Source: Candidatus Harpocratesius repetitus (lineage in GTDB: Archaea; Asgardarchaeota; Lokiarchaeia; Sigyniarchaeales; Promethearchaeaceae). From it: a stretch of 32,000 bases of DNA. The position numbers and the translations under genes were made by a program. The notes below the pieces were generated by a model. The model was given only the letters and a program-made list of their open reading frames with translations, did no database searches and had not been told where the DNA came from. Shown piece by piece: positions 1-4,223 of the stretch (within the stretch, counting starts at the first letter, position 1; each line of letters starts with the position of its first letter). The DNA is taken from positions 2,070,001-2,102,000 of the forward strand of contig JAIZWK010000001.1 of assembly GCA_021498095.1 (NCBI GenBank), read 5' to 3'.

Positions 1-1
1 T

Positions 2-1084
2 GAATTCTCCATAAAATCAAGTGCTGTTAGGGAAGAATATCGTTTAGCTAAAAAATTTGAAAGAAAAATAATCCCCATCATTTTAAATGAAGATTTAAAT
101 GCTGAAAACATCAATTCTACGAATAATGAAGAATATTCTAAAATAATAAAAGAGCATTTTCCAGATATTTACAAAAATCAATATATTGAGAAATATCGAA
201 CTGGATACGATTTAATCGAATTTCAATCAAGCTTGTTGGCAATGGTTGAGAAGCTAACTGGTGTGCAAATTCAAGAAAGTGTTGGTTTAGTTCCTATCTA
301 TAATATTCAAAAAACAATAATTGGTTTCACCACACGACCCTTTTTACATTTCATTCCCCAAGCTTATCACAAGACTATTATCGCTATCCTCGTTGCTCCT
401 GTTATGCAAGATAAAGGAATTATAGATCCCACGAAACGAAAAATCATCGTTCAAGTAAAACCAAAAAAAAGGAAGAGAAGATCTGGGAGTTTAGCATTTT
501 TTGGAGGGCATAACGAAATAAATGAGTCTTATACTGATACCGCCATACGGGAATTGAGTGAAGAAATTAATATTCCTGAAGAAGAAATTACCAAACAGCC
601 TCTCATTAGAATTGGTAGAGAAGGTGAATTCTCATGGACAGCAGAAGATAAAGAATTTTCACGGTATAACTATGAATTCAGCACATTATATGTATACCAT
701 CTTGCAAATCGTCCGTATTTCTTTCAAGAAACGATAGGACCTAAGATTTTACCCGTTTTTACAATTCAAATAACCTTAGATGAATTATTCAATATCTATA
801 ATAATTCAACAACAATTGGTTCATTTATAAAAGACAATTCAATCGAAATTCCTGAAAACATACAAAAAAACATGGGAGATTTCACGGATCCATTACGATT
901 TAGTGATGATATTGTTCGTTTATTTGGATATCCTGAAAATATCACACAAAAAAATGGACAAAGCTTTAGTGAAGATCTACAAAAGAGAAGAGAAAAATAT
1001 GAAAAGAGATGGAAAGCTGCAATCTTTGATGCAATTCAAAATCCCCACCATCTGTCAAACCCAGACTGTAAATTAATTTTATAA
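2..1084 (+). CDS. TIR-domain + Nudix (IDI-like) hydrolase fusion protein, 5'-truncated by the window edge
   Basis: The frame of ORF 233..1084 is open back to base 2. It reads EFSIKSSAVREEYRLAKKFERKIIPIIL, matching the TIR_2 pattern S-x-x-V-x-x-E-x-x-x-A...K-I-I-P-I-I-L. Downstream is a Nudix box GGHNEINESYTDTAIRELSEE (G-x5-E-x7-REUxEE, from 503) with IDI-like flanking motifs (IIGFTTRPFLH, YHKTIIAIL, IIVQVK, EFSTLYVY). Confidence 0.75.
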   Translation, partial: EFSIKSSAVREEYRLAKKFERKIIPIILNEDLNAENINSTNNEEYSKIIKEHFPDIYKNQYIEKYRTGYDLIEFQSSLLAMVEKLTGVQIQESVGLVPIYNIQKTIIGFTTRPFLHFIPQAYHKTIIAILVAPVMQDKGIIDPTKRKIIVQVKPKKRKRRSGSLAFFGGHNEINESYTDTAIRELSEEINIPEEEITKQPLIRIGREGEFSWTAEDKEFSRYNYEFSTLYVYHLANRPYFFQETIGPKILPVFTIQITLDELFNIYNNSTTIGSFIKDNSIEIPENIQKNMGDFTDPLRFSDDIVRLFGYPENITQKNGQSFSEDLQKRREKYEKRWKAAIFDAIQNPHHLSNPDCKLIL

Positions 1085-1183
1085 TTCTTCGTTTTTTTCT
1101 TCAATTCAGGCAAAAAACTATAATTATAAAAAGATTAATGGAAATTTTTTACTAGCAAAATACGTTGAAGGTAGGTATTTCTT

Positions 1184-3202
1184 ATGACTGAATTAAAGAA
1201 AAGAAGAAATTTAAATCGAAAAAGAGCAAAAAAAAATGTCCCACTCGCCCAATTTTTTCAAGAAATACTTCAAACTAGTAACTCTATGGAAGTAATAGTA
1301 TATGAAGGACTTGTAGGCATTAAAGTCAATTCTCCAGAAGAGGCTATGAAATGTTTTGAAAATGATCTTAATCTCCTTTACAATGGTTATTTACATTATT
1401 TTGAGGAGGAATTGAAATTCATCGAAGATTCCATATATGAATATGATTTCGGCAGTAAAGAATATAAAAAGTATAAAAGAAAGATTAGAAAATTAGTAAA
1501 GGACTATCGCAAACAGCAAGAAGTCTGGTTAAAAAATAAAGAATGGAAAAGTAAATTTGAAGAAATTTTAAGAAAAATTTGGGCGAATATTTTAAAACCA
1601 GAAAACTACCAAGGAATTCAAGGCTATGTACTTCAGTATAGTGGAAATGTTAGTGTTAGTAATGATTCCGATTATCTTTATTCATCTGAAGATTTATTAC
1701 TGTTAAAAGACAGTGCTCCAGATGGTATTACTGGTATTGCATTATCCAATGAACTCTCAAGTTTATTACATAATCTCGATATATTCATAAATGAAATACA
1801 AGAAATCTTATCTAGAATGTTAAATTGTGATGATGAAACAAAATGGATGAGATTGTTAACAAGAATTTATACTTCAGAAGATTTTCCTGTTGGAGAAACT
1901 CATTTTTATGCAATTCAAAGTATGGTTAGGAATTTTGGAATAGATGGATGGGAAATTGCCATGCGAAGAAGAGCAAAAATAAAAAAAAATAACTGGTTAG
2001 AAGAAGATTATGATTACTATATTTTTCCGCAAGAACTCAAATTATTGATAAAAATCAGCAATAAAATCGGTCATTATATTAATATACATGAACAAAATTT
2101 TTATCCTTCTTATAGAAGTGGAAAGGTCCGTTCCGCCGAAAGAAAAATAGAAGATAAATGTTTTGCAATTATTAGATCGGTTACTGATTTTGATGATTTA
2201 GAATTTGAAGATTTTATTGATATAGAATATAAAGATTTTGACTACTATTGGGAAGATGACGATTTTATGCATATCAGATCTTTAGGATTAAGAGGGTTAT
2301 CCTTAAGCAAAATTCCAGAGGAAATTTTTAATTTTAAGTTTTTAAATTATTTAGATCTTTCTCAAAATTCGATTGAATATATACCTGAAGCAATCTTGAA
2401 TTTAAAATTTTTAAAAAAACTGAATTTGATCGAAAACCCTTTAAAATTAAAATATCAAAAAATATTCGAGAAAAATCCATTATTAACTTGTGAATATATT
2501 AAGAGTTATCTTCAAAATGAAAAATTGACACTGGATGATATTAAAAGCAGAATTACACAGAACCAGGCTTTAGATTTTTCAAAACATATCCCGAAAGTAA
2601 TCCTTAATAATAAAGAACAAATCATAAAATTTTGTCAAAAGCACCATTCAAGTACAGCAAAATTCCTTCAGAATTACTTGAAAATGGATTTTATTCAAGA
2701 AGAAGCAATCCATCTAAATGAAGCTAAATGGATTAGACAGCTTTTTACTGAGATTTCTACTGAAATTCCACTTTATCATGATATCGCATATAATTTCGAT
2801 GAAGAATTTGAATATCAAATTGATAAAGGTATTATTTTAAGAGAATACAGAGTATCCAGAATTTTCTTAAATGGTCTCCAACTAGAAGAAATTCCCAAAG
2901 CGATTTTTCACTTCAAAAAGTTGATAGAATTGCAACTAAAGAATAATAATTTATCAGATTTACCTTTTGAAATGGATAAATTGAAAAAATTAGAATATAT
3001 TTCTTTATCAGGTAATAACTTTTCTGAAATTCCGGTTGTTCTTGGTGGTTTTGAAAAGTTAAAGGAAAAATGTTATGAAGAATTAAAAGAGTATTGTGGA
3101 TTTGAAGAAGTAACTGGCGAAACTATCAAAAATCATATAAAAACTCGATATCATACAGAGAAATTGAATTTTCAAGGAAATCCACCATCTAACAAACCCT
3201 GA
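1184..3202 (+). CDS. Leucine-rich repeat protein with two separate LRR blocks and an uncharacterised N-terminal region
   Basis: LxxLxLxxNxLxxIP repeats: LSKIPEEIFNFKFLNYLDLSQNSIEYIPEAILNLKFLKKLNLIENPL and LEEIPKAIFHFKKLIELQLKNNNLSDLPFEMDKLKKLEYISLSGNNFSEIP. SD-like GAAGGTAGGT lies upstream. Confidence 0.85.
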   Translation: MTELKKRRNLNRKRAKKNVPLAQFFQEILQTSNSMEVIVYEGLVGIKVNSPEEAMKCFENDLNLLYNGYLHYFEEELKFIEDSIYEYDFGSKEYKKYKRKIRKLVKDYRKQQEVWLKNKEWKSKFEEILRKIWANILKPENYQGIQGYVLQYSGNVSVSNDSDYLYSSEDLLLLKDSAPDGITGIALSNELSSLLHNLDIFINEIQEILSRMLNCDDETKWMRLLTRIYTSEDFPVGETHFYAIQSMVRNFGIDGWEIAMRRRAKIKKNNWLEEDYDYYIFPQELKLLIKISNKIGHYINIHEQNFYPSYRSGKVRSAERKIEDKCFAIIRSVTDFDDLEFEDFIDIEYKDFDYYWEDDDFMHIRSLGLRGLSLSKIPEEIFNFKFLNYLDLSQNSIEYIPEAILNLKFLKKLNLIENPLKLKYQKIFEKNPLLTCEYIKSYLQNEKLTLDDIKSRITQNQALDFSKHIPKVILNNKEQIIKFCQKHHSSTAKFLQNYLKMDFIQEEAIHLNEAKWIRQLFTEISTEIPLYHDIAYNFDEEFEYQIDKGIILREYRVSRIFLNGLQLEEIPKAIFHFKKLIELQLKNNNLSDLPFEMDKLKKLEYISLSGNNFSEIPVVLGGFEKLKEKCYEELKEYCGFEEVTGETIKNHIKTRYHTEKLNFQGNPPSNKP

Positions 3203-3217
3203 TTGTAAATTGATTTT

Positions 3218-4223
3218 TTAATTCTTTGCATGTTCCTTCAATTCAGGTAAAAAGTGATATGCTAAGATAAAACTTCCTACTGCCATGATGATAGAGATAT
3301 ATAATGCAATATGCCAATTCCAATCAAAAATAATAAATTTCAGAATTATCGAGAAAAATACGGTAAAGATTGCAGGAACAGAGCCTAAAATGCCCCAAAT
3401 ATAATCAATTTCATTATTATTAAAGGATGAATAAATATAATCCATACTGAAAGGTTTAACAAAATCCCGCGCCATTAAAATTATTACCGAAATAAGCATC
3501 CAAATATAAAGCTGACCAGCAGCTAAAATCATACTTAAAGGAATCACATCAAAAATCAAATCAAAGAGAAAAATTTGTTTTTTTTTTAGGTTTTTTTGTT
3601 AAGACCGCCATTAAAATGCTCAATCCTCCAACTAAAAGATGTCCAAAACCGTAAGATTCAAAAATATCTGAAATTGGAAAGCCTTGTATGAAAAAAATAG
3701 ATGGTAAAAATGAAAAAGTGGCAGAAATCCAAGATGTCATTATTGCAATGATTAATTGAAAAATCAAAACTTTTTTGTTAACTAGTGATTTAAATGAAGA
3801 AATTGGTTGATTTTCGATTGTTTGAGTTATATTTGAAGAGGTTTTGTTTGTTTCCATTTTTTGGTTAACGATCCTGTTGCGATTCCTAAATATAGGAATA
3901 AATCACGAATAGAGAACACTTTACCTCTTTCATTTTTTGCTCACAAGCGCGTAGATAGCTAATGAAAAAGTAGTGACTCGTAAATTACCAAATTTGCTAC
4001 TTAACTTAAAAATTGGTAATATAATAATGCAAATTTGAGTGATCACTTTATATGCCGTTATTGCAACAGGTTTTTGTTGAAGATTGAAGAATAATTCGGA
4101 ACCTAAATCAATGATCTCAAAGAAACTCCAGAAAAAGAAGAATAACAAATAGATTAACATAAAATCTAGTCGAAATATATTATAAATTGAGTTATGTTTC
4201 TTTTTTGAATTAAATCCGATCAT
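3218..4223 (-). pseudogene. Decayed MFS transporter, covering track ORFs 3930..4223, 3561..3857 and 3218..3559
   Basis: Removing one base from the T10 run (3578-3587) fuses the two distal ORFs into a 6-TM MFS C-terminal half (...AVLTKKPKKKQIFLFDLIFDVIP...). Removing one base from the T6 run (3933-3938) gives YALVSKNERGKVFSIRDLFLYLGIATGSL, an MFS TM4-5 loop/TM5 pattern. LSSKFGNLRV resembles MFS motif A. TM3-4 and TM6 appear to be deleted. Confidence 0.65.

What the first reader, a model, noticed from the sequence alone, without database searches (positions are those of the whole stretch)
2..3202. TIR-Nudix gene directly followed by an LRR protein: candidate split sensor/effector immune module
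Seen: the two genes are co-oriented, 99 bp apart, and the second has two LRR blocks behind a ~350-aa unknown N-terminal region. Established: LRR sensor plus TIR signalling is the logic of eukaryotic TLRs and TIR-NLRs, and Asgard archaea are the closest prokaryotic relatives of eukaryotes. Inference: this may be a two-gene LRR-sensor/TIR-enzyme defence or signalling system with a built-in Nudix modulator. Caveat: LRR genes are abundant in Lokiarchaeia, so adjacency may be chance.
Basis: inference. Interest (0 to 1): 0.72.

Follow-up and report, generated by a model that had tools for sequence, protein, structure and literature searches.

The report
Rare TIR-Nudix gene beside LRR gene
A rare archaeal gene fusing an NAD-cleaving TIR domain to a Nudix hydrolase really does sit 99 bp upstream of a leucine-rich-repeat gene, but most of its relatives lack such a neighbour, so it is more likely a one-gene enzyme than a fixed sensor/effector pair.

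Summary
Window 2-1084 is the last 360 codons of a 436/444-codon TIR_2 + NUDIX gene that starts about 250 bp before the window. A co-oriented 672-aa gene (1184-3202) follows after 99 bp. It has an orphan ~355-aa N-domain and two short LRR blocks.

The TIR-Nudix family is very rare: about 16 clusters in billions of proteins, mostly Promethearchaeota metagenomes. I found 11 family loci with readable neighbours. Three have an LRR gene next door: this one, a metagenome contig with two TIR-LRR genes plus SIR2 and another Nudix, and genome G155. Eight do not, including all four closest homologues (38-52% identity).

The three other members of the LRR gene's own genus-specific family lie beside unrelated genes. 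The LRR partners share nothing beyond generic repeats.

The pair sits in an ~8-kb strain-specific island with a toxin-antitoxin-like pair and an AAA_14/DUF4143 ATPase. A congener lacks this island.

Best reading (0.55): an autonomous two-step NAD+-destroying enzyme, with the LRR gene at most a facultative, lineage-specific partner (0.25).

The scan's earlier notes on this DNA concern this same stretch only.

The parts
2..1084 (+). 3' part (residues 85-444 plus stop) of the TIR-Nudix gene. The whole gene is G000 2069750/2069774-2071084, so it starts 250 or 226 bp before the window.
   Evidence: ORF lists; Pfam TIR_2 + NUDIX; five-sequence family alignment A1; model with pLDDT 72 that matches TIR and Nudix folds.
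2..170 (+). C-terminal third of the TIR domain (residues 85 to about 140). It contains the invariant putative catalytic Glu96 (window 35-37).
   Evidence: E96 is invariant in A1. It falls in the Glu-bearing '..E..' motif in the profile alignment to the Cat1 TIR chain; other bacterial TIR chains (AbTIR) are also hit.
362..784 (+). Nudix domain (residues about 205-345). The Nudix box G253-x5-E259-x7-R267-E268-x2-E271-E272 lies at window 506-574.
   Evidence: Pfam NUDIX. The box residues are invariant in A1 and A3. Foldseek hits to Nudix structures 2o5f, 2fkb (E. coli K12 'possible Nudix hydrolase') and NadM 2qjo.
785..1081 (+). C-terminal helical region (residues 346-444) with the family motif RFSDD(I/V)xR. 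No known family.
   Evidence: Alignments A1 and A3; helices 343-430 in the model.
1085..1183 (+). 99-bp spacer. It has a T7 run at 1092-1098, 8 nt after the stop codon. An A-rich stretch plus TATA-like element (aaaaaacTATAATTATAAAAag, 1112-1133) lies about 55 nt before the ATG.
   Evidence: Sequence read directly. Reading these as an archaeal terminator and promoter is inference. Such motifs are frequent in 29%-GC DNA.
1184..3202 (+). LRR672 gene: a basic N-terminus, an orphan N-domain (residues 1-355, window 1184-2248), LRR block 1 (361-415, window 2264-2428), a ~140-aa linker and LRR block 2 (559-621, window 2858-3046).
   Evidence: Pfam. Family of four, restricted to the genus. Model with pLDDT 64 in which only the LRR part finds structural matches.

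Best explanation
The TIR-Nudix gene is a self-sufficient, one-gene NAD+-degrading conflict (probably antiviral) enzyme of a rare, patchily distributed archaeal family. It is carried in an ~8-kb strain-specific island.

Inferred mechanism: on activation the TIR domain (catalytic Glu96) cleaves NAD+ to nicotinamide plus ADP-ribose or a cyclic isomer. The fused Nudix domain has an intact Nudix box and weak YfcD/IDI-like affinities. It splits the pyrophosphate of that product into AMP and ribose-5-phosphate. NAD+ loss then becomes irreversible and cannot be undone by viral pathways that recycle ADPR, such as NARP1.

The downstream LRR672 gene belongs to a genus-specific LRR family. It is not a conserved or obligatory partner. 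At most it is a facultative, lineage-specific accessory.

Shown: the domain composition, the conserved catalytic motifs, the rarity of the family, the island context and the non-conservation of the pair. Inferred: the enzymology, the defence role and the absence of coupling.
For: - TIR_2 and NUDIX score above the Pfam cut-offs.
- Glu96 and the whole Nudix box are invariant in five long-form members. The Nudix box is also invariant in nine long- and short-form members.
- The best solved relatives of the TIR are NADases: Cat1, AbTIR, SPARTA TIR-APAZ and SARM1.
- The Nudix fold matches DR0079, 2fkb and the NadM ADPR pyrophosphatase.
- Eight of 11 family loci with readable flanks have unrelated neighbours. 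These include an MFS transporter, penicillin amidase, hexapeptide transferases, flavin reductase, ADH, ribosomal protein L11 and a CN-hydrolase. The only feature common to all loci is the fusion gene itself.
- LRR672 relatives lie next to SfsA, an NHL-repeat protein and rhamnogalacturonan-lyase/NTP-transferase genes, never next to TIR.
- The segment from after ACR3 to BioY (G000 2067121 to about 2075090) is missing at the syntenic site of the congener G136:C96. It holds an RHH antitoxin-like gene plus a 171-aa gene, the AAA_14/DUF4143 ATPase (PADLOC PDC-S01, E 8e-115), TIR-Nudix, LRR672, a broken MFS gene and a beta-carbonic anhydrase.
- The family is patchy: 4 of 400 Asgard genomes carry it, and the closest homologue is in another family-level lineage.
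- The ADPR-recycling logic comes from doi 10.1101/2024.02.11.579819.
- The spacer carries a T7 run and a TATA-like element, consistent with separate transcription (weak).
Against: - Adjacency of a TIR gene and an LRR gene in a genome with only about 10 LRR and 3 TIR genes is expected about 1.5% of the time.
- Two further, distantly related family members also have LRR genes as immediate neighbours. That makes 3 of 11 loci. In a crude regex control on ±1.5-kb flanks, 0 of 17 other Asgard TIR loci had an LRR neighbour (Fisher p about 0.05, my arithmetic).
- TIR-LRR fusions exist in Asgard genome G124 and on contig L067. This is a Rosetta-stone-type hint that the two domains work together in these organisms.
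- No enzymatic or expression data exist.
- A constitutively active NADase would be toxic, so some trigger or sensor is needed and has not been identified.
- The substrate of this Nudix branch cannot be read from sequence. The NCBIfam hits are far below cut-offs.
Confidence: 0.55

Rival explanations
1. Two-gene split sensor/effector module. LRR672 recognises a viral or other cue through its LRR blocks or its orphan N-domain. It then activates or scaffolds oligomerisation of the TIR-Nudix enzyme, as the LRR does for the TIR in TLRs and TIR-NLRs.
For: - The genes are co-oriented and 99 bp apart.
- Chance adjacency in this genome is low, about 1.5%.
- LRR neighbours recur at two other, independently diverged family loci.
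- TIR-LRR fusion proteins exist in the phylum and beside a TIR-Nudix gene on L067.
- Both genes lie inside the same strain-specific island.
- The enzyme needs some trigger.
Against: - Eight of 11 family loci lack an LRR neighbour, including all four closest homologues.
- None of the other three LRR672-family genes is near a TIR gene.
- The three 'partner' LRR proteins share only generic repeats and differ in architecture and orientation: downstream co-oriented, convergent, and divergent.
- On L067 the LRR proteins carry their own TIR domains, so paralogous TIR clustering could explain that case.
- G155 is very LRR-rich, so adjacency there is expected at a few percent.
- The spacer carries a T7 run and a TATA-like element.
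Confidence: 0.25
2. Single-chain writer/eraser of a nucleotide signal. The TIR makes a cADPR-type second messenger for an effector encoded elsewhere. The Nudix domain degrades it to reset or threshold the response.
For: - There is a weak ThsB_TIR Pfam hit (22.4 bits, cut-off 21.2) and PADLOC ThsB hits.
- Nudix domains are predicted to degrade ADPR-derived signals (PMC9503650).
- Both catalytic motifs are conserved.
Against: - No ThsA-like, SLOG, Macro or SAVED receptor/effector gene lies within about 15 kb upstream or 6 kb downstream in G000.
- None is visible at the other family loci. L067 is a partial exception because it has a SIR2_2 gene.
- A signal maker fused to its own eraser in one chain would be futile unless the two are differentially regulated.
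Confidence: 0.1
3. Not an immune gene. It is an NAD/ADPR housekeeping or regulatory protein, for example with the Nudix domain acting as an ADPR/NAD sensor as in NrtR or NUDT9-H. The LRR gene is unrelated.
For: - The neighbours of most homologues are metabolic genes.
- Nudix domains can act as ligand sensors (PMC9503650; PMC13464706).
Against: - All catalytic Nudix-box residues are kept.
- The distribution is extremely patchy, divergence is fast (38-52% identity, including within one genus) and the gene lies in a strain-specific island. This is the pattern of accessory conflict genes, not housekeeping.
- A congener carries only a decayed 30-codon remnant.
Confidence: 0.1

Closest known systems
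Prokaryotic TIR NADase effectors (AbTir, SPARTA TIR-APAZ, CRISPR-associated Cat1, ThsB-type TIRs)
   Same: It has a TIR_2 fold with the conserved catalytic Glu. The best sequence and structure matches are to these proteins. It also has the accessory, patchy distribution typical of defence genes.
   Different: It is fused C-terminally to a Nudix hydrolase plus a ~100-aa helical tail. It has no Argonaute, CARF/SAVED or ThsA partner nearby. NADase activity is not shown.
Nudix ADP-ribose/NAD pyrophosphatases (the NadM Nudix domain, NudE/NudF/NudC) and the YfcD/IDI-like Nudix branch
   Same: The Nudix box is complete apart from G to N at the penultimate position. It has a Nudix fold. Short-form relatives give weak YfcD/IDI NCBIfam hits.
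   Different: All NCBIfam scores are far below cut-offs, so it is not a member of any named equivalog and its substrate is unknown. It has family-specific motifs (H..P.[YW]HKT, NYEFST, F[SA]D[DG]IxR) and is fused to a TIR domain.
LRR + TIR receptors (animal TLRs, plant TIR-NLRs) and prokaryotic TIR-LRR fusion proteins
   Same: An LRR protein and a TIR protein are encoded side by side. True TIR-LRR fusions occur in the same phylum (G124) and beside a TIR-Nudix gene on contig L067.
   Different: Here they are two separate genes with no conserved pairing. There is no transmembrane segment or NB-ARC/STAND module. The LRR blocks are short, about 3-4 repeats each. There is no homology to TLR or NLR beyond the generic domains.
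Thoeris (ThsB TIR + ThsA effector)
   Same: A TIR domain with weak ThsB_TIR/ThsB1 profile hits.
   Different: No ThsA (SIR2/Macro + SLOG) gene is found in the neighbourhood. The Nudix fusion is not part of Thoeris.

Membership tests
TIR domain (Pfam TIR_2, PF13676), NADase-type | Profile match above the curated cut-off | tested here: met
   59.1 bits against a cut-off of 28, E 7.6e-16, residues 26-116.
TIR domain (Pfam TIR_2, PF13676), NADase-type | Conserved catalytic glutamate in the alphaC region | tested here: met
   E96 is invariant in alignment A1. It falls in the Glu-bearing motif in the profile alignment to the Cat1 TIR chain.
TIR domain (Pfam TIR_2, PF13676), NADase-type | Flavodoxin-like TIR fold | tested here: met
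   The model (pLDDT 72) aligns to SPARTA TIR-APAZ, SARM1, AbTir and RPS4 TIR domains. Rmsd is 3.5-5 A over about 150-168 columns, probability 1.00.
TIR domain (Pfam TIR_2, PF13676), NADase-type | NAD+ glycohydrolase or cyclase activity | not testable with these tools
   This needs an enzyme assay.
Nudix hydrolase superfamily (PF00293) | Profile match above the curated cut-off | tested here: met
   27.3 bits against a cut-off of 21.1, E 4e-6. Homologues score 28.7-48.7 bits.
Nudix hydrolase superfamily (PF00293) | Nudix box GX5EX7REUXEEXGU | tested here: met
   The sequence G253-HNEIN-E259-SYTDTAI-R267-E268-L-S-E271-E272-I-N-I has all metal-binding and catalytic positions present. Only the penultimate G is N (sequence read; invariance).
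Nudix hydrolase superfamily (PF00293) | Defined substrate class (ADPR/NAD versus other NDP-X) | tested here: inconclusive
   NCBIfam hits (CoA pyrophosphatase, MutT; YfcD and IDI for short-form relatives) are all far below their cut-offs.
Thoeris defence system | ThsB-type TIR together with a ThsA (SIR2 or Macro + SLOG) gene in the same locus | tested here: not met
   Only a marginal ThsB_TIR hit (22.4 against 21.2). No SIR2/SLOG/Macro gene was found among the ORFs scanned from 15 kb upstream to 6 kb downstream.
Conserved two-gene LRR-sensor / TIR-effector module | The gene pair is retained across homologues of either gene | tested here: not met
   An LRR neighbour is present at 3 of 11 TIR-Nudix family loci and at none of the four closest homologues. 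None of the 3 other LRR672-family genes has a TIR neighbour.
Conserved two-gene LRR-sensor / TIR-effector module | Co-transcription of the two genes | not testable with these tools
   No RNA run is listed for this DNA (see Tried and rejected). Sequence signals in the spacer are only suggestive.
TLR / TIR-NLR type receptors | LRR and TIR in one polypeptide, with a TM segment (TLR) or an NB-ARC/STAND NTPase (NLR) | tested here: not met
   These are two separate ORFs. No NB-ARC/NACHT or other domain is detected in LRR672 beyond the LRR.
PADLOC candidate PDC-S01 (AAA_14 + DUF4143 ATPase), for the divergent upstream neighbour | Full-length profile match | tested here: met
   PDLC04787: E 8e-115, residues 29-406 of 406. 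Pfam AAA_14 + DUF4143. This is a candidate system only. A defence function has not been established.

The most novel reading that the evidence does not exclude
In Promethearchaeial (Asgard) genomes the YfcD/IDI-like Nudix, TIR and LRR domains form a recurrent, modular NAD-centred immune toolkit. LRR proteins, either fused to a TIR or encoded next door, act as pattern sensors for TIR(-Nudix) enzymes. This would be a prokaryotic, partly split counterpart of the LRR-TIR logic of TLRs and TIR-NLRs. The G000 pair would be one split instance.
Probability: 0.2. Interest if true: 0.8.

Novelty: new variant of a known kind. Interest (0 to 1): 0.45.

Why it matters
TIR NADases and Nudix ADPR hydrolases are each well known. 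I found no description of a fused TIR-Nudix enzyme: a full-text search for 'TIR-Nudix' gave 0 papers, and two Asgard defensome papers do not mention Nudix or LRR-TIR pairs. If the fusion destroys NAD+ and then ADPR, it would be a host answer to viral NAD+-reconstitution pathways that recycle ADPR. If the weak LRR association is real, it would put an LRR-sensor/TIR-enzyme arrangement in the closest prokaryotic relatives of eukaryotes. As it stands, the specific two-gene module is not conserved, so its evolutionary significance should not be overstated.

Tried and rejected
- **Co-folding.** I submitted TIR-Nudix 22-444 as partner against LRR672 42-301 and 362-656, using my own shallow alignments. 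The tool's verdict was 'no answer (no support, and no evidence against)', with a score of 0.00 against a mark of 0.32. I do not use this either way.
- **RNA evidence.** No RNA holder is listed for window 1-3300. There are only two DNA runs, and one is probably the source sample.
- **Is the G135 locus orthologous, with the LRR gene inserted between TIR-Nudix and an MFS gene?** Rejected. The G135 MFS protein P0009 has no detectable similarity to the broken MFS fragments at window 3218-4223.
- **The N-domain of LRR672.** There are no Pfam, NCBIfam or PADLOC hits. The word-index search found only the protein itself. The Atlas feature search gave no usable hit. Foldseek and VIA-align matched only the LRR part, so the N-domain was effectively untested because the model has 672 residues and pLDDT 64. 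No claim about its fold is made.
- **The ~800-aa Asgard TIR proteins found with the TIR query.** I suspected these were TIR-LRR proteins. They carry helical TPR-like repeats and none of my LRR motifs, so they are not relevant to the LRR question. Pfam was not run on them.
- **A single inversion between the two LRR paralogues as the explanation for the G136 arrangement.** This does not fit the flanks: the ATPase in G136 is followed by the '410-aa' gene orthologue, not by the TA/ACR3 genes. G135 is too fragmented to help.
- **P0132.** This is a 111-aa fragment, 85% identical to the C-terminus, on a 292-kb NCBI contig. It could not be located.
- **The sigma-70 promoter scan** was not used because it does not apply to archaea.
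Full report
**1. What is there**

The window is G000:C1:2070001-2102000 of a 4.36-Mb single-contig genome. Relatives of its proteins are labelled Promethearchaeota in public records.

Window 2-1084 is the 3' end of a gene whose frame opens at G000 2069750 (444 codons). A second ATG, 8 codons in, matches the homologues' starts and gives the 436-aa product P0001. Pfam finds TIR_2 at residues 26-116 (E 7.6e-16) and NUDIX at 230-295 (E 4e-6). Both are above their cut-offs.

After a 99-bp spacer comes a 672-aa ORF at 1184-3202. It has two short LRR blocks (361-415 and 559-621) and nothing recognisable in residues 1-355. Only the last third of the TIR domain lies inside the window.

**2. The TIR-Nudix protein**

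Five long-form members (38-52% identical) share an invariant Glu96 in the position of the TIR catalytic glutamate. They also share a complete Nudix box, G253-x5-E259-x7-R267-E268-x2-E271-E272.

A profile search of PDB sequences ranks the NADases Cat1 and AbTIR and other bacterial TIRs first, then MutT/ADPR-pyrophosphatase-type Nudix proteins.

An AlphaFold model (pLDDT 72) has a TIR domain (about 24-140), a poorly predicted linker, a Nudix domain (about 205-345) and a helical tail. Foldseek matches SPARTA TIR-APAZ, SARM1, AbTir and plant TIRs for the first domain. For the second it matches DR0079, 2fkb (an E. coli K12 'possible Nudix hydrolase') and the NadM ADPR pyrophosphatase.

NCBIfam gives only sub-threshold hits: YfcD and IDI for short-form relatives, CoA pyrophosphatase and MutT for the long form. 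The substrate therefore cannot be assigned.

**3. How rare it is, and who its neighbours are**

A word-indexed search of 5.8 billion proteins found three full-length homologues. An exhaustive HMMER search of 1.84 billion representatives added a few short-form (330-360 aa) TIR-Nudix proteins. A profile of the Nudix half (A3) brought the total to about 16 clusters.

Of 400 Asgard genomes, only four carry the family: G000, G135, G272 and G155.

The eleven loci with readable flanks are as follows.

| Locus | Member | Neighbours | LRR next door? |
|---|---|---|---|
| G000 | query | LRR672 downstream, co-oriented | yes |
| G272 | 52% identity, another family-level lineage | 217-aa unknown, penicillin amidase, hexapeptide transferases; an LRR gene about 6 kb away | no |
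| G135 / P0004 | same genus | convergent MFS transporter, PIG-L | no |
| P0003 | long form | convergent unknown ORF | no |
| P0002 | long form | ribosomal protein L11 upstream; downstream cut | no |
| P0166 | short form | polyketide-cyclase-like, flavin reductase | no |
| P0162 | short form | two unknown ORFs, ADH | no |
| P0165 | short form | DUF6144-like | no |
| P0160 | short form | CN-hydrolase, CxxCxxCC | no |
| P0136 (11.5-kb contig L067) | short form | co-oriented 622-aa TIR-LRR gene, convergent 628-aa Zn-ribbon-TIR-LRR gene, then a 576-aa Nudix protein, SIR2_2, TPR, WD40 | yes |
| G155:C259 | Nudix-first member | divergent 217-aa LRR-only gene 400 bp away | yes |

So an LRR gene is an immediate neighbour at 3 of 11 loci and at none of the closest homologues.

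**4. The LRR gene's own family**

The N-domain of LRR672 has relatives only in the genus. There is a 927-aa paralogue in G000 (41% identity, three LRR blocks), next to SfsA and far from any TIR gene. There are two proteins in G135 on contigs C55 and C69, next to NHL-repeat, rhamnogalacturonan-lyase and NTP-transferase genes. The G135 TIR-Nudix gene is on C34.

The LRR proteins at the three 'positive' loci share only generic repeats.

**5. Is 3 of 11 more than chance?**

G000 has about 10 LRR genes and 3 TIR genes, so adjacency here is about a 1.5% event. This assumes about 4,000 genes, which is my estimate.

G155 is LRR-rich, with at least 160 LRR_8 matches, so adjacency there is expected at a few percent.

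With a per-locus chance of about 3%, three or more hits in eleven loci has p of about 0.004. If both gene types concentrate in variable islands and the per-locus chance is 10%, p is about 0.09 (my arithmetic).

I also ran a crude motif control. None of 17 other Asgard TIR loci (±1.5 kb) has an LRR neighbour. One TIR protein, in G124, is itself a TIR-LRR fusion, which Pfam confirms. Fisher's test on 3/11 against 0/17 gives p of about 0.05. The regex missed two known weak LRR proteins, so the control is insensitive.

I read this as suggestive of a domain-level association. It is not evidence for a conserved gene pair.

**6. Genomic context**

Upstream and divergent is an AAA_14/DUF4143 ATPase that matches PADLOC PDC-S01 at E 8e-115. 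Beyond it are an RHH antitoxin-like gene with a 171-aa partner, then ACR3, ArsR and a transposase. Downstream are three fragments of a broken MFS transporter, a beta-carbonic anhydrase and BioY.

In the congener G136 (contig C96), ACR3 is followed directly by BioY. The ~8-kb segment carrying the TA-like pair, ATPase, TIR-Nudix, LRR672, MFS fragments and carbonic anhydrase is therefore strain-specific.

G136 does keep the ATPase (about 90% aa identity), the shared intergenic region and the first 30 codons of the TIR gene, which are interrupted by a stop. These lie at a different place, between genes that in G000 flank SfsA and the LRR927 paralogue. So the ATPase-TIR segment has moved or decayed within the genus. 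What followed the TIR gene in G136 is lost.

**7. Transcription signals**

A T7 run lies 8 nt after the TIR-Nudix stop codon. An A-rich/TATA-like element lies about 55 nt before the LRR672 ATG. This is compatible with separate transcription units, but such motifs are common in 29%-GC DNA. No RNA data are available.

**8. Mechanism and verdict**

The best-supported reading is an autonomous TIR NADase fused to a product-degrading Nudix pyrophosphatase. The TIR would turn NAD+ into nicotinamide and ADPR or a cyclic isomer. The Nudix would turn that product into AMP and ribose-5-phosphate. This would make depletion irreversible and deny viruses the ADPR needed by NARP1-type NAD+ reconstitution (doi 10.1101/2024.02.11.579819). 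PMC9503650 describes the general role of Nudix domains in NAD/ADPR conflicts. All of this enzymology is inferred.

The two-gene LRR-sensor/TIR-effector reading remains possible as a lineage-specific arrangement (about 0.25). A writer/eraser signalling role and a non-immune role are less likely.

The fusion family appears undescribed. I rate it a new variant of a known kind, of moderate interest.

Noticed in passing
G000 2069655-2069722 (window -345 to -278; L003:14655-14722): Three tandem 23-bp units (TTTTCAWTRnnAATGAAYAAAA) lie in the 112-bp region between the divergent AAA_14 ATPase and TIR-Nudix genes. Each contains the inverted repeat TTCATT/AATGAA. Shuffles expect 0 matches. There are only loose matches elsewhere in the genome. 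The units are conserved in G136. They may be an operator for a shared regulator.
   Followed up: partly
G136:C60:3954-4147 (L030): A congener keeps the ATPase, the intergenic repeats and only the first 30 codons of the TIR gene (76% nt identity, in-frame stop, start region deleted). This remnant lies at the site where G000 carries SfsA and the LRR927 paralogue. I cannot say whether it is a coincidence that the same three families (AAA_14, TIR, LRR672-like) meet at both loci.
   Followed up: partly
window 3218-4223 (-): Three consecutive short ORFs (113, 98 and 97 aa). The first two give weak MFS_1 hits to successive parts of the profile. This looks like a broken MFS transporter gene convergent on LRR672.
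   Followed up: partly
G000 2067121 to about 2075090 (window -2879 to about 5090): An ~8-kb segment between ACR3 and BioY is absent from the syntenic site in G136:C96. Its parts occur scattered on other contigs in G135 and G136, so the island is a mosaic.
   Followed up: yes
L067 (ENA contig k141_1352716, 11.5 kb): An NAD-centred gene cluster. It holds a short TIR-Nudix gene, two Zn-ribbon-TIR-LRR paralogues, a 576-aa protein with a C-terminal Nudix, an 80-aa ORF, SIR2_2, a TPR protein and a WD40 protein. It is a good candidate defence island in its own right.
   Followed up: partly
L066 (G155:C259:1785-2780): A Nudix-first member of the same family. Its C-terminal part (cut by the contig end) reads like a TIR-like or 2-deoxyribosyltransferase-like domain by eye, but Pfam does not detect it. 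This may be a swapped domain order.
   Followed up: no
L014 (G124:C268:857-2176): A 440-aa Asgard protein with TIR_2 (123-227) fused to LRR (341-420). This is a compact TIR-LRR fusion.
   Followed up: partly
L015-L028 (e.g. G214:C44, G218:C156, G246:C43): Many Lokiarchaeial genomes of family f3 carry tandem arrays of ~800-aa proteins. Each has an N-terminal TIR and long TPR-like helical repeats. They may be TIR-STAND/TPR sensors.
   Followed up: no
P0132 (111 aa, NCBI, 292-kb contig): A fragment 85% identical to the C-terminus of the TIR-Nudix protein exists in another assembly. Its locus could not be fetched. It would be the closest relative and could settle whether LRR672 follows it.
   Followed up: no
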